A stretch of DNA of 64,000 bases from Pecten maximus (taxonomy: Eukaryota): the NCBI RefSeq assembly GCF_902652985.1, contig NC_047027.1, positions 37,696,001-37,760,000 on the forward strand, in the 5' to 3' direction. This document shows, piece after piece, positions 12,001-18,000 of the stretch (position 1 is the stretch's first letter; each line of letters starts with the position of its first letter). The position numbers are program-made.

Positions 12001-15000
12001 CATAGTACAGTTTCAAGAGAGCAACTGTAAAGAGAGAGGCCATTTTGAAAAGTGAATTTCCTTCGTGTCCGAGTTTTCAGAATCTGTTATAGATGTGTGT
12101 GTTATGTCTGTAAAATATGTCCACTGTATGACGTGTGGTATTATAGCTATATTTATCACACGACACAATTCACATTTTTTATGATGTCATACTATGACGT
12201 TATGACATCACTGTTACATGAAATTTTCTCATTCAAAGAAAAACAGATATTTGATGCAAATCGTCTTCGTACGATTTCCAGGTCAAAATTTCATAATTAG
12301 TCCACATCAGAAATCCAAAATATAATTTGAAGCTTGTGGAAAGTTGATTTGCTGGAACGACAGGACAATTTAAATGATTATCTTCAATAAATTTGTTTTA
12401 CTTAAACTGTAATGACTACCTTGGTTGATAACGAATCTTAAAGACATCATTATAATTGTTTGACCTTGTGTATGATTAAATGAATGTTTTGAATGGATAT
12501 ATGTAGTGAAATATAACATTTTCCAAGATGAATCTCTGTGAGAGCGTTGATATAAAACCTAATTTTGAATTAAGTTAAAATTTACAAAGAAATTAAAAAT
12601 TTACAAAGAAATTTGAAATTTAAAAAGATATTCAAAATTTACAAAGAAATTCAAATTTTTTTTTTTTTCTTATAAACACTTTCATCTTGTTTTCGCATAA
12701 CACATTAAGTCTGAAATAAGAATTTTTGATGGGTCATATACCAGTATATCAAAAAGTAATTTTGACAGCTAGCTATAGGTATATAAAAATCAATATGTCT
12801 GTAGCAGTAAGTTTTCAATGATGAATGACCAAAATGAATGAAAAACTAAACAGTCAGAAGAGCTCCCATGATGGTCGAAATTGTTTATTTGTGTCTGTGA
12901 CAGTTTTTACTATTTTTTATATGCAAACAATACAGGTGTGAATTCTAGTGGCCTGAACCGCCTCTAAGTTTCATGACATCCAGTTGAACTTTGACTTTTA
13001 GCAATTTCAGAAGTCAAATTACCTTTTCTCACAAATCTGAATGGTCAAAACCTATGTCAAATAGATATGCTCCTTCAAACTCAAGAGTCAAATCTGATTT
13101 TGGAGAGTCAAAAACATACTCTCAGCTAAATTCCTATACTGGATTATCTCCCCCTGGTTTGAAACTTAAAATCAGAAATATCCTATAGAGACCAAAATCA
13201 TAATGCTCAATTTTATTTATAATTTTAAAATTCTAAAGACACCCTAGTTTGAATTCCTGAACGTTTGCTGTATAGCAAAAGTCTTCCTTTTCTTGAGAGA
13301 GATTGTGATGATGATTCATGGAGAGTACAAATTAACATTTAATTACTATCTGTTTTTGTCAAAGAATATTGTTGCCTTTTGTATTAGTTATCAGGAAATT
13401 TAATTAGGAACTGTGATGTGTTAGCTGTTGGTAATAAAAATAATGTAACACAATTATTTTTTTTCTTCTGTAAAAAATTTTTTTCAATGAAAATGCTGAT
13501 ATGATATACAAGGACATACGTCTGAAATTCAGTTTTAATTGTTTATTTATGACTGTATAACGATAAGCTGAGGTACTTTCGGTACTTTGATATTTTACTG
13601 GAGGAGATCGACCATAACTCGGAGATCCCAATGCAATCAGTCGCAGTATCAAGTACTCGCAGTAATCAGCGGGGTGGTCATGAATTATAAAACGTCGGGG
13701 AAACCTGAAAGAATGTTTGTTAAATGAATAGGTAGTGAAAGCCGATAATAGCAGTGAAAGTCATCATGGTTGTTAAAACCACTGCCTATATATATATCTT
13801 AATGATATTGTAATATAAGAGGTATATGTTTCAGTTGTTAATTATATCTCTACTTATATATACTGATATGCTTTTTGAATTACATGTAATGAATTGTTGT
13901 TTGGAATATAATTTGATTTCAATGTTCCCCTTTTCAATTTTGATTAAGATTTTTTGATTTTTTTTTTCTTAATCAACAAATGCCGCTCCCCCCCTCCCCC
14001 ACTCACATATACCCCCACCCCCATCTAACCACCCCACCCTACCCCCACCCCCATCCCCCTGCACTTACAAATAATTATAAACCCCTTGTAGCCTATCAGA
14101 AAGACACACCAATATTTTTTTTTTTTTTTTAACAAATTTTTTATTCAATTTTAATTTTATCAACATCACATTACAAATACAATACATGTCCATTCAAACT
14201 TACAAGCATACATCATATTCATTTAGATATAATGTTATATATATTCATACATGTAGCTATTCTATATGTCTTTACTCAGTCACTCACACACATAAAGACA
14301 CCAAATCAAACTTACACATTACAAACATACTGGGGGGGGGGGGATTTTCTTTTGCAGCCTCAGACTAATTGTTTGATTACACAGATGGTAAATAGTGTAT
14401 ACAATGTACACGTAAGTATATATCTAAACTTTAAATTGTCAGCACAAAACTGTTACATTAAATAAAACCACATCATAGATATATTAAAATCATTAAAATC
14501 ATATGTTAAGCCAGTTTTCAAGATTATTTTGTAACTCAACGTTGTTTCGGTATGCCTTATGCTTAACTATCATCAGCTTATGAGCTTTCAGTTCAAACAG
14601 TATATGGTTCTTTAAACTTATTAAATTGATATCTTTTTCTAAACATTTCATTTTAAACAAATATTGTTTAATCAATAGTAAAATAAGGTTATCTAATACC
14701 AAATCTGCATCACTGAAACTAAATTTTCCAAGTATAAATTCCTGTTTAATAAAATCGACAAAAATGTTGTTAGCAGCAAGTAATTGTTTAAATTCACGTA
14801 AAAGAACACTAACCTTATCACAATCCCAAAAAAAGTGTTCAATGGTTTCTGGAAAATTTCTACAGAATGTACATAAATTATCTTGTTTTATACCCATTTT
14901 ATGTAGAATTGTATTTGTAGTTAAAATTCTATGATTGATTCTGTATTGAAGCCATCTTAGTTTTGTACTATTAGTGGTTTTAAAAACATTTGTATAAACT

Positions 15001-18000
15001 TCTTTCCATTGGTTTTCCTGGATATTAAAAATTAAGCTCCATTTTCTTTGTGATGTAGGCTTTGTGTGATTATGGCACCCACCCCCATCTAACCACCCCA
15101 CCCTACCCCCACCCCCATCCCCCTGCACTTACAAATAATTATAAACCCCTTGTAGCCTATCAGAAAGACACACCAATATAGGACTGTACATAAAAACCAA
15201 AATTGCCATGTGAAAAGCTTGACTTCTGAAAATAAGCCCTGCAGACCGATAAAAAACACTTCTCGCACCCTTGTCCATCTTAGGTAGCAGGTCCGAATGC
15301 CTATCTGTTTAAGTGTAAGAAGTAACTGGCCCCTACGCGTTTTTATGTTTATGTCATAAATATCGTATAACATGCCGTAACAATACTATATTGGTATCAT
15401 CAATATATACTACAGACACTTGTCTCAAGAATAAAAAACGTGCTGTCTGAGACAAAAATTCACAGAGATATATAGATTTAACGTTTATTTTGACATGAAT
15501 AAAGTTATGTGATAAATAGAATCTAACATTCCTGTCAATATTGAGTTATTTATTATGTCCTTTGATTTGATTAGTACTTTCGCAAAATCTTGTATAGTAC
15601 ATATTTATTACATTTTTACCAGTGAAATATCAAAAATTATTCATTCTATAAAAGTGATATTTTTCACTTTTGCTGATTTGACCAATCAAATTAATGATTA
15701 GAAAATACCAAAATAATTGACCAATCAGAAAGCCCGACATATATGTCAGCACCTGGACAGGGGAAACTACTTTTTTTGTTTACAAATTATCGCTGTAGTT
15801 CTAGTTAGCATACGGGGTAGGGTTTTCGTTGATAAAAAATGTAATAAACAGAATATCTAACAGTGTCTTCAGTAAAACCAAATATATTTCACTCGTGTGG
15901 CTAATATTTTGATATTTTTCACTCGTGCTGCGCACTCGTGAAAAATATCAAAATATTAGCCCCACTCGTGAAATATATTTGGTATTACTGAAGACACTGT
16001 TAGATATCCTCTATATATTCAGTAAGAAAAATCCCCCTGTTGAGTTTTTTTTTGGTGGTGTAATTTTATAATAATTCTGACACTGGTATTATTAATTACT
16101 GCAAAATTTGTTCCTGTTGAATTAAAAATGGTTGCCTGCCCCCACCCCCAAACCCCCCCCCCCCCCCCCCAAACTCCCAAACCTAGAATAGTTCTAAATA
16201 TCAGCACATCTTGGAGCCCATTTCTCTTTTCACTATTTATAATAAATACGTCAGTAGCGAAACAAATTTATTCTCGCGATTGCGTAGACATCTTCCCCAT
16301 GATAAATGGTTGCGTAACCGTGTGAATTCTTTTTTCCGACGTCTGTTCATTATTTTACGCTATCATAATCCAGATTAGTAAAAGACTTAACAGCCAGATT
16401 ATAGCCCGAGTGAGCTGTGCTACGGAAGCTCTAAACTCTGTAGCAGGACCAGTTTAAATTTCCACAATTCTCTCGGGACTATTTAAAAGTCACCAACCTC
16501 ATCAGCTACAGAATGAGAATTCAAATCAGACTTCAAAATTTCTTAAAATGCTGACATCGTCGAATATGGACTGATTTTAAAGAATTTAGTCATGTTTAAA
16601 GAGTTTTTTTCCTTTTTTCTCATAAATAGAAACAGAATTTAGATGGTAATTCTCTACTCAAGTGCCACAAACATCAAGACATTAACATAGAAGATTTGAA
16701 ATGAAACTCAGAAAGATTCATTTAAAAAATTGCATTTGAATTATTGATTTATTTAGAGCCTGCATATACCTTTTTAACAAGATTTTGTTATATCTATTTT
16801 GCAAGTATAGAAAGCTAGAATTTGTATCGTTACTGCAAATTTACAAAATGTTTATACATGTATATCAATTTCATTGCCAATAGTTTTGGTAACTTGACAT
16901 AAATTTGGTGAAAATTATTAAGTGTTAGCTATTACTGAGAATTTTGATGTTTAACGGGTTAGAAATGAAGAATTTTTTCCTTTTTAAGTTAATTTTTGTT
17001 AAGAACATATATATGTAGATATTATTTATAATTTCCGATCATGTCCATTAATTTATATCTTATATAATTTTCTTAAATTCTCCATGAAAAATCAAATCAC
17101 TTTGACCATCAAATAACGGTGCTAATGAAATTGCTGGAGTATATAAAATGCAATATTATATCGTTTTTTCTTCATTTTGATTTTCCTCTGGCGAAGAGTC
17201 GAACCTTTAAATGTTGTTACTTAGTGGGATTCCTGGATGTTCTCGTATATTGCAATATATCCACAGGTTCCAGTCGGAATTTCTTCATTACTTCAAAATT
17301 TATTCCACTCCTGACTAGATAGCTACATGTTAGCATAATGGACTGGCATGGCGATAGTCTGATGACAAAATTAATTACAATTTCTTATTAGTGCGATAAT
17401 CAAATAATCAGAAGGAAGCTAGTACAAGACCATTTTCATTGGTTGATGTTCGGGACCCAGACAGTTTTCATGTGACCAGTTGACGGCATTTAATAGCGAC
17501 CTTATTTACTCACCTCTCCCAGAAGAGGCGAACAATTATGCTTCGCTCCATGTCCCTTAACGATACTGGTAGGTGGGGCTAATAAACCCTACGTTACCAG
17601 ACAAATTTTATGGAAAAAAACGTACAGGATGTATTGGCGCATGTCTCTATCACATACTGGTAAGAAACAATTACTAAAGGTCTCATCAGAGTCATGGAGA
17701 AGCTTGTAACCAATGCTCTTTCTGTGTAGGACATTTCCCGGTTACTGGATACCAGGTGAATTAAGGAAGAGCCATCAAATCTTACACAGCGGTGTATCTG
17801 TACTGTGACAGGGACATTTGTCAAAATTGGTTTTACAAGAAAACTTCAAGAAAAAATTACCAGTGCTCTTAGCAGTTAAAAATTTTGGAAGTTATAAATT
17901 TCATTTTTGTGAAAAAAAATAAATAATAAGAAAATTGTAGCATAAGAATTTTTACTGAGACGGTGTACATGTCATTAATCATGATGGCAGACGGCCTATA

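What the first reader, a model, noticed from the sequence alone, without database searches (positions are those of the whole stretch)
14014..15179. Young L1/Tx1-like insertion with a perfect 102-bp target-site duplication
Seen: 14014-14115 and 15078-15179 are identical over 102 bp and exactly bracket a ~960-bp 5'-truncated LINE with a poly(A) tail and a stop-free zf-RVT frame. Established: L1-type TSDs are usually about 7-20 bp, and ones near 100 bp are rare. Inference: the insertion is very recent, possibly polymorphic, and second-strand cleavage occurred ~100 nt from the first nick. The distal boundary falls inside a (CCCCA)n-like tract whose opposite strand could form a G-quadruplex, so DNA structure may have set the cut. 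It could also be a family-wide long-TSD mechanism.
Basis: partly seen in the sequence, partly recalled or inferred. Interest (0 to 1): 0.7.

Follow-up and report, generated by a model that had tools for sequence, protein, structure and literature searches.

The report
Truncated LINE insertion with 102-bp duplication
A broken-off copy of a jumping gene of the LINE-1 kind sits between two identical 102-base copies of its landing site, an uncommon but already described outcome of how such elements insert.

Summary
Window 14014-14115 and 15078-15179 are identical over 102 bp and occur only twice in the window. They abut a 962-bp insert (14116-15077) on the minus strand. The insert has 192 open codons with a zf-RVT domain, a stop, a 368-nt 3' UTR, an AATAAA signal and an A15-16 tail.

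Homology to full-length EN+RT+zf-RVT proteins runs up to the 5' junction. The closest full-length relative matches human L1 ORF2p at 6e-100. The best reading is a genuine 5'-truncated L1-superfamily insertion made by target-primed reverse transcription, with a 101-102-bp target-site duplication. That falls in the "long TSD" class already described for L1, mostly with 5'-truncated inserts.

The distal break lies inside a G-run of a G-quadruplex-prone tract. Such tracts cover about 0.6% of that strand in the window. This is suggestive, but it is one event scored after the fact.

"Very recent" is only loosely bounded. The Tx1 label, a family-wide long TSD, the empty allele and read support could not be tested. 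The window shows nothing that suggests human DNA. Interest is low to moderate.

The parts
14014..14115 (.). Target-site duplication, copy next to the element's poly(A) end (102 bp; 101 if 14115 is counted with the tail)
   Evidence: 100% identical to 15078-15179. Abuts the tail at 14116.
14116..14130 (-). Poly(A) tail of the insert: 15 A, and the A run is 16 with 14115
   Evidence: Read directly.
14140..14145 (-). AATAAA polyadenylation signal, 9 nt upstream of the tail
   Evidence: Read directly on the minus strand. Its role as a signal is inferred from established knowledge.
14131..14498 (-). 3' UTR of the LINE (368 nt), with a C12 run on the sense strand at 14332-14343
   Evidence: Lies between the stop codon and the tail.
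14499..15077 (-). C-terminal 192 codons plus stop of the LINE ORF2-like protein, with a zf-RVT domain. The 5' truncation point is at 15077.
   Evidence: Pfam PF13966 at E=3.1e-9. It is 34-39% identical to the C-termini of 1263-1266-aa EN+RT+zf-RVT proteins, with homology up to the junction. In the 1.84-billion-protein representative library, 6881 proteins match at E<=1e-3 and the best is 60% identical.
15078..15179 (.). Target-site duplication, copy next to the truncated 5' end
   Evidence: 100% identical to 14014-14115.
13973..14073 (-). G-rich, G-quadruplex-prone tract on the element's sense strand. The inferred second-strand break (14013|14014) falls inside one of its G-runs.
   Evidence: A regex G4 motif lies at 14032-14059. 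The G4Hunter-like tract at threshold 1.5 covers the boundary. ViennaRNA with G-quadruplexes enabled predicts two quadruplexes, the second straddling the boundary.

Best explanation
This is a genuine insertion of a 5'-truncated non-LTR retrotransposon of the L1 superfamily, of the type with a zf-RVT C-terminus. It was made by target-primed reverse transcription, and it has an unusually long target-site duplication of 101-102 bp.

Inferred steps:
1. The element's endonuclease nicked the window's plus strand at the T|A step between what is now 14115 and 15180. The T-ended 3' OH primed on the poly(A) tail of a polyadenylated LINE RNA.
2. Reverse transcription stopped about 947 nt from the 3' end, which gave the 5' truncation.
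3. The other strand, which is G-rich here, was broken 101-102 nt downstream instead of the usual ~15 nt. The break lies inside a G-run of a quadruplex-prone tract.
4. The 3' end of that strand primed second-strand synthesis. Fill-in of both 102-nt single strands produced the two identical copies.

Shown here: the anatomy, the domain, the family affinity, and the position of the break relative to the G-tract.
Inferred: the order of events, who cut the second strand, and any causal role of DNA structure. I put about 0.3 on the structure having set the cut.
For: - The 102-bp repeat is perfect and two-copy only.
- One copy abuts the poly(A) tail, which follows an AATAAA signal. The other abuts the point up to which protein homology to full-length relatives runs.
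- The zf-RVT match is above Pfam's cut-off.
- Relatives P0002 and P0003 carry Exo_endo_phos, RVT_1 and zf-RVT.
- P0002 matches human L1 ORF2p over residues 1-891 at 6.1e-100. The best R2 protein scores 9e-29.
- Long TSDs above 20 bp are a recognised class, and 'extremely long TSDs' were seen with 5'-truncated L1 inserts in HeLa cells (passages of PMC4245944 and PMC2912911). Tandem duplications of 1-10 kb at L1 insertions are described as large TSDs (passages of bioRxiv 10.1101/2024.12.14.628481).
- For a role of structure: the boundary lies in the longest G4-prone tract of the window. Such tracts cover 0.56% of that strand, or 1.2% of both strands, at threshold 1.5. Without quadruplexes the strand has almost no Watson-Crick structure, at -1.1 kcal/mol. 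[quoted passage not shown]
Against: - This is a single locus. No empty allele, no reads and no second family copy were available, so the duplication's origin at insertion is inferred from geometry alone.
- The nick site is only a T|A step, not the mammalian T-rich consensus.
- EN and RT are missing from this copy and are known only from relatives at 34-39% identity.
It uses my own simplified G4Hunter-like score, written from recall.
- The regex G4 motif (14032-14059) ends 18 nt from the boundary.
- ViennaRNA's quadruplex energies are RNA-derived and not reliable for DNA.
Confidence: 0.8

Rival explanations
1. The long TSD is real, but the G-tract is a coincidence. The distant second-strand end came from something else. 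One option is a pre-existing nick or an Okazaki-fragment end at a replication fork, as in the single-nick model at a single-strand/duplex junction. Another is break-induced or bypass replication that copied about 100 nt of flank.
For: Passages of PMC10830416 propose that a single nick near a single-strand/duplex junction gives a staggered break, and that TSD length depends on other factors such as unpairing. The bioRxiv preprint 10.1101/2024.12.14.628481 suggests break-induced replication for large TSDs. There is only one observation. Roughly 1% of window positions lie in such a tract on either strand, so a post hoc hit is not extraordinary.
Against: The break falls inside the strongest and longest G4-prone tract of the 64 kb, and on the strand that carries the Gs. 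The first-nick site lies outside any such tract.
Confidence: 0.45
2. The site already carried a tandem duplication of the 102 bp, and the LINE landed exactly at the joint between the two copies without making a TSD of its own.
For: The window is extremely rich in tandem repeats, including periods near 100 bp.
Against: It needs the insertion to fall exactly on the joint, a blunt integration and two perfectly identical units. The tandem arrays found in the window are 55-100% matched and multi-copy. No further copy or partial copy of the 102 bp exists nearby.
Confidence: 0.03
3. The duplication is an assembly artefact: the same 102 bp was placed on both sides of a heterozygous insertion.
For: Perfect identity of the two copies is what an artefact would give. 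The host genome looks repeat-rich and may be heterozygous (inference).
Against: There are no N runs or scaffold joins in the window. An artefact would not be expected to place the copies flush with a poly(A) tail on one side and with the homology boundary on the other. No reads were available to test it.
Confidence: 0.05
4. The 102 bp downstream of the tail is a 3' transduction carried from a source locus, not a TSD.
For: An A10 run lies on the sense strand at 13958-13967, 46 nt beyond the downstream copy, and could be taken for a second tail.
Against: The sequence after that A run does not repeat the sequence upstream of 15077. The model also leaves the identical upstream copy at 15078-15179 unexplained, unless the source locus were this same site.
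Confidence: 0.02

Closest known systems
Long target-site duplications (L-TSD, >20 bp) at L1 insertions in cultured human cells and tumours
   Same: A poly(A)-tailed, 5'-truncated L1-type insert flanked by a direct duplication of the target far longer than the 13-15-bp mode. The literature ties extremely long TSDs to 5'-truncated inserts, and treats 1-10-kb tandem duplications at insertions as large TSDs (passages read).
   Different: This is a germline-fixed or segregating copy in an unidentified, AT-rich, non-human-looking genome. The element belongs to a distant L1-superfamily lineage whose C-terminus is zf-RVT, and the human L1 match stops at residue 891 of the relative. The break position inside a G-run is a detail that none of the passages and listings I read reports.
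Human LINE-1 ORF2p (PDB 8uw3, 8sxt, 9k6g and others)
   Same: The closest full-length relative P0002 aligns over EN, tower and RT (residues 1-891) at E=6.1e-100. Its EN region also matches isolated L1 endonuclease structures at about 1e-20.
   Different: The part actually present in the window, the last 192 residues with zf-RVT, lies outside the region aligned to human ORF2p. The window copy itself was never compared directly with human L1 ORF2p, and it is only 34-39% identical to its own full-length relatives.
Tx1 group of the L1 clade
   Same: By recall only: Tx1-type elements combine an APE endonuclease, an RT and a C-terminal zinc-binding region, and are common in fishes, amphibians and invertebrates. 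The domain order EN-RT-zf-RVT of P0002 and P0003 fits this.
   Different: No Tx1 reference sequence was available in the tools, so no tree or direct comparison was made. Many Tx1 lineages are target-specific (recalled; PMC4494074 was read only for its TSD passages). Nothing here shows target specificity.

Membership tests
L1-superfamily non-LTR retrotransposon (APE-type LINE) | ORF2 with an APE-like endonuclease and a reverse transcriptase | tested here: inconclusive
   Both domains are lost from this copy by 5' truncation. Relatives P0002 and P0003, 34-39% identical over the shared C-terminus, carry PF03372 and PF00078.
L1-superfamily non-LTR retrotransposon (APE-type LINE) | Closer to L1 than to other LINE clades | tested here: inconclusive
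   P0002 scores 6.1e-100 against human L1 ORF2p and 9e-29 against the best R2 protein. No other clade's endonuclease structure appeared at E<=1e-3. The PDB holds few LINE clades and no tree was built.
L1-superfamily non-LTR retrotransposon (APE-type LINE) | 3' end formed by a poly(A) tail after a polyadenylation signal | tested here: met
   A15-16 at 14116-14130 (or to 14115), with AATAAA at 14140-14145, 9 nt upstream.
L1-superfamily non-LTR retrotransposon (APE-type LINE) | Flanking target-site duplication | tested here: met
   A perfect 102-bp direct repeat flush with both ends. Its length is about 7 times the clade mode of 13-15 bp (passages).
zf-RVT-bearing LINE lineage | C-terminal zinc-binding domain PF13966 with conserved Cys/His | tested here: met
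   E=3.1e-9, 37.8 bits against a cut-off of 27.5. The invariant C69, C72, E77 and H81 and the nearly invariant C86 of a 24-sequence alignment are present in the window copy.
Tx1 group | Phylogenetic placement with Tx1L-type elements | not testable with these tools
   No Tx1 reference sequences were available. The cluster look-up that might have given names was switched off, and the hits carried no names.
Long-TSD (L-TSD) class of LINE integration outcomes | Target duplication above 20 bp flanking a TPRT-type insert | tested here: met
   101-102 bp. The class definition comes from PMC4245944 and PMC2666801 (passages).
Endonuclease-independent LINE insertion | No TSD, and often 3' truncation or no poly(A) tail | tested here: not met
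   A TSD and a full 3' end with tail are present. The defining features are recalled.
L1 3' transduction | A second poly(A) after the carried flank, with TSDs outside it | tested here: not met
   The sequence beyond the A10 run at 13958-13967 does not repeat the 5' flank, and the identical upstream copy is left unexplained.

The most novel reading that the evidence does not exclude
Non-B DNA sets the position of the second-strand break in target-primed reverse transcription. A G-quadruplex, or its junction with duplex DNA, on the strand still to be cut would attract the element's endonuclease or a host nuclease. Long TSDs would then be predictable from target structure. This LINE lineage might also make long TSDs habitually.
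Probability: 0.12. Interest if true: 0.6.

Novelty: new member of a known kind. Interest (0 to 1): 0.27.

Why it matters
How the second DNA strand is opened during LINE integration is still unsettled. The papers I read give competing models: a specific cut about 15 nt away, a single nick at a single-strand/duplex junction, and structure-driven cutting.

A clean natural insertion whose distal break sits inside a G-run of a quadruplex-prone tract is an anecdote in favour of structure-guided breaks. It also suggests a cheap genome-wide test in the host assembly. On its own, this locus is one ordinary, well-preserved example of a known rare outcome. It is useful mainly as a marker of fairly recent activity of a zf-RVT L1-type family in this genome.

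Tried and rejected
- Other copies in the window: self-BLAST of the element found only itself (1 of 1 hit), so no family TSD survey was possible.
A five-sequence alignment scanned against genome contigs (prokaryotes only) gave 131 pattern matches and 0 confirmed relatives.
Of the protein hits, 6 of 7 carried no name and one was called 'hypothetical protein'. The host taxon stays unknown.
- Rfam: 0 matches in the window.
- Pfam on 52 of the 104 ORFs of 75 aa or more: 0 families. I chose the non-repetitive ORFs by 3-mer diversity and also left out the LINE ORF and the two ORFs on the opposite strand within the insert.
- Watson-Crick hairpin at the TSD: the minimum free energy is -1.1 kcal/mol for 156 nt, so this was rejected.
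- The 3'-transduction, pre-existing tandem duplication and assembly-artefact readings were considered and rated low (see rivals).
- Literature link between G4 and TSD length: the listings of three searches showed no paper making it. PMC4229983, read in passages, found no excess of non-B motifs at its deletion breakpoints. PMC13141329 and PMC4494074 gave nothing on long TSDs.
- No spliced gene model was involved, so no joined-exon step arose.
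Full report
**Observation**

The two stretches 14014-14115 and 15078-15179 are identical over 102 bp. The bases just outside differ on both sides. A self-BLAST of the 102 bp finds these two places only.

The window has no N. It is about 35% G+C and is crowded with minisatellites (78 rows from Tandem Repeats Finder). I therefore asked whether long perfect direct repeats are common here. I listed pairs of at least 20 bp with spacing 150-9000 bp and inspected the 40 longest of 123. 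Of these, 37 lie inside tandem arrays, 2 belong to a local duplication at 7.6-8.0 kb, and 1 is this pair. It is the only one that abuts a poly(T) run.

**Anatomy of the insert**

The 962 bp between the copies read on the minus strand as follows:

| Part | Coordinates |
|---|---|
| 192 open codons | 15077-14502 |
| Stop codon | 14501-14499 |
| 3' UTR, 368 nt | 14498-14131 |
| AATAAA signal | 14145-14140, 9 nt before the tail |
| Tail of 15 A | 14130-14116 |

The A run is 16 long if 14115 is included. That base also occurs in the upstream copy, so the duplication is 101 or 102 bp.

The protein fragment matches Pfam zf-RVT above the curated cut-off (E=3.1e-9). It is the only ORF of 150 aa or more in the window that is not a translated minisatellite (1 of 10).

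**Family**

A scan of 1.84 billion representative proteins gave 6881 proteins at E<=1e-3, 1591 at 1e-10 and 7 at 1e-30. The best hit is 60% identical. This is a member of a very large family with no near-identical representative on record.

Among longer proteins, P0002 (1266 aa) and P0003 (1263 aa) carry Exo_endo_phos, RVT_1 and zf-RVT. They are 34-39% identical to the window fragment. In the alignment, homology starts within a few residues of the 5' junction at 15077. The 17 codons that stay open into the flank are G-rich filler and do not align.

P0002 matches human L1 ORF2p over residues 1-891 at 6.1e-100. The best R2 protein scores 9e-29, and isolated L1 endonuclease structures score about 1e-20. 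This supports "L1 superfamily". The narrower label "Tx1" could not be tested for three reasons. No reference sequences were at hand.

**What it is**

One copy of the duplication sits flush against a poly(A) tail that follows a polyadenylation signal. The other sits flush against the point where LINE homology begins. That geometry is what target-primed reverse transcription (TPRT) produces, so I read the 102 bp as a target-site duplication made at insertion (confidence about 0.8).

Taking the element's strand as the top strand:
- The first nick was on the window's plus strand, at the T|A step after 14115 in the empty site.
- The second break was on the minus strand, between 14014 and 14013, that is 101-102 nt downstream.
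- The ends then carried 3' overhangs of about 102 nt. Fill-in of these gave the two copies.

This sequence of events is inferred from the established TPRT model.

**Rival readings**

- Pre-existing tandem duplication hit exactly at its joint: about 0.03.
- Assembly artefact: about 0.05. There are no gaps, and the copies are flush with biological landmarks.
- 3' transduction ending at the A10 run at 13958-13967: about 0.02. The flanks beyond it do not repeat, and the upstream copy would be unexplained.

**Age**

The evidence for a young insertion is zero differences in 102 bp, an uninterrupted tail and an intact frame with all conserved Cys/His. Zero of 102 differences bounds the divergence between the copies only at about 3% (95%; my calculation). 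"Very recent" and "polymorphic" remain open.

**The G-rich tract**

On the element's sense strand, the distal part of the duplication and the adjoining flank form an irregular G-rich tract.
- A standard regex finds a four-run motif at 14032-14059, inside the duplication. There are six such motifs in the whole window, and two of them are the two TSD copies of this same motif, so five are distinct.
- A simplified G4Hunter-like score, written from recall (window 25), marks 13973-14073 at threshold 1.5. This is the longest such tract on that strand. The boundary 14013|14014 lies inside it, and the first-nick site does not.
- In the inferred empty-site window, such tracts cover 0.56% of that strand, 1.2% of both strands, and 0.37% of that strand at threshold 2.0.
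- ViennaRNA with quadruplexes enabled predicts two quadruplexes. The second uses G-runs on both sides of the boundary. Without quadruplexes the strand is essentially unstructured, at -1.1 kcal/mol. The quadruplex energies are not reliable for DNA.

But it is one event, examined after it had been noticed. I give about 0.3 to a causal role.

**Comparison with what is known**

- Passages of PMC4245944 and PMC6007223 give 13-15 bp as the L1-clade mode in several hosts.
- PMC4245944 and PMC2666801 define a "long TSD, >20 bp" class. PMC4245944 notes many long TSDs in one HeLa data set.
- PMC2912911 (passages) says that 5'-truncated L1 inserts in HeLa often came with extremely long TSDs. It also says its own genomic survey was limited to 5-30 bp, so long TSDs in vivo were left uncharacterised.
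- bioRxiv 10.1101/2024.12.14.628481 (passages) treats 1-10-kb tandem duplications at L1 insertions as large TSDs and suggests break-induced replication.
- PMC10830416 (passages) proposes that a single nick next to single-stranded DNA can give the staggered break.
- PMC12809410 (abstract) reports that L1 EN cutting depends mainly on DNA structure.

None of the listings from three searches showed a paper that links a G-quadruplex in the target to TSD length. This holds only for the library searched, and I read no supplements.

**What stayed unchecked**

- The empty allele, spanning reads, other genomic copies and their TSDs, and the host's identity.
- Genome contigs holds prokaryotes only and gave 0 relatives among 131 pattern matches.

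I do not take the window for human. It is AT-rich and minisatellite-dense. It has no Rfam match and no Pfam match in 52 other ORFs. Its one LINE is of a zf-RVT type whose window-borne C-terminus lies outside the part of the relative that aligns to human ORF2p. This is indirect evidence. No tool flagged any of the letters.

**Verdict**

This is a real, well-preserved, 5'-truncated L1-superfamily insertion with a 101-102-bp TSD. It is a new instance of a known rare outcome. It adds a suggestive but single-case link between the distal break and quadruplex-prone DNA. Interest is about 0.27.

Noticed in passing
window 15844-16016: An 85-nt inverted repeat, 89% complementary with a 3-nt spacer, about 670 bp from the insertion. 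It could be a foldback or MITE-like element or a long hairpin.
   Followed up: no
window 7609-7995: Two perfect direct-repeat pairs outside any reported tandem array: 53 bp at 7609-7661 / 7878-7930, and 73 bp at 7667-7739 / 7923-7995. They suggest a recent local duplication of about 260 bp.
   Followed up: no
window 26255-30782, 36599-39390, 45249-45989, 48371-49458, 52669-53294, 61393-62829: Minisatellite load is very high: for example a 25-bp unit x111, a 48-bp unit x31 and a 46-bp unit x31. By eye, several different arrays seem to share a short core.
   Followed up: no
window 14332-14343: A 12-base homopolymer inside the LINE 3' UTR: G12 on the plus strand, C12 on the element's sense strand.
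   Followed up: no
window 5405-5453, 16125-16188, 24477-24536: Further C-rich, G4-prone tracts on the same strand as the one at the insertion. The tract at 16139 onward is 75% identical over 28 nt to a stretch of the tract at 14012 (family D1). They may be a recurrent simple-repeat type in this genome.
   Followed up: partly
window 15593-15688 and 35857-36013: The right flank of the insertion resembles a stretch 20 kb away on the opposite strand: 78% over 74 nt and 93% over 27 nt. This is an unclassified dispersed repeat.
   Followed up: no
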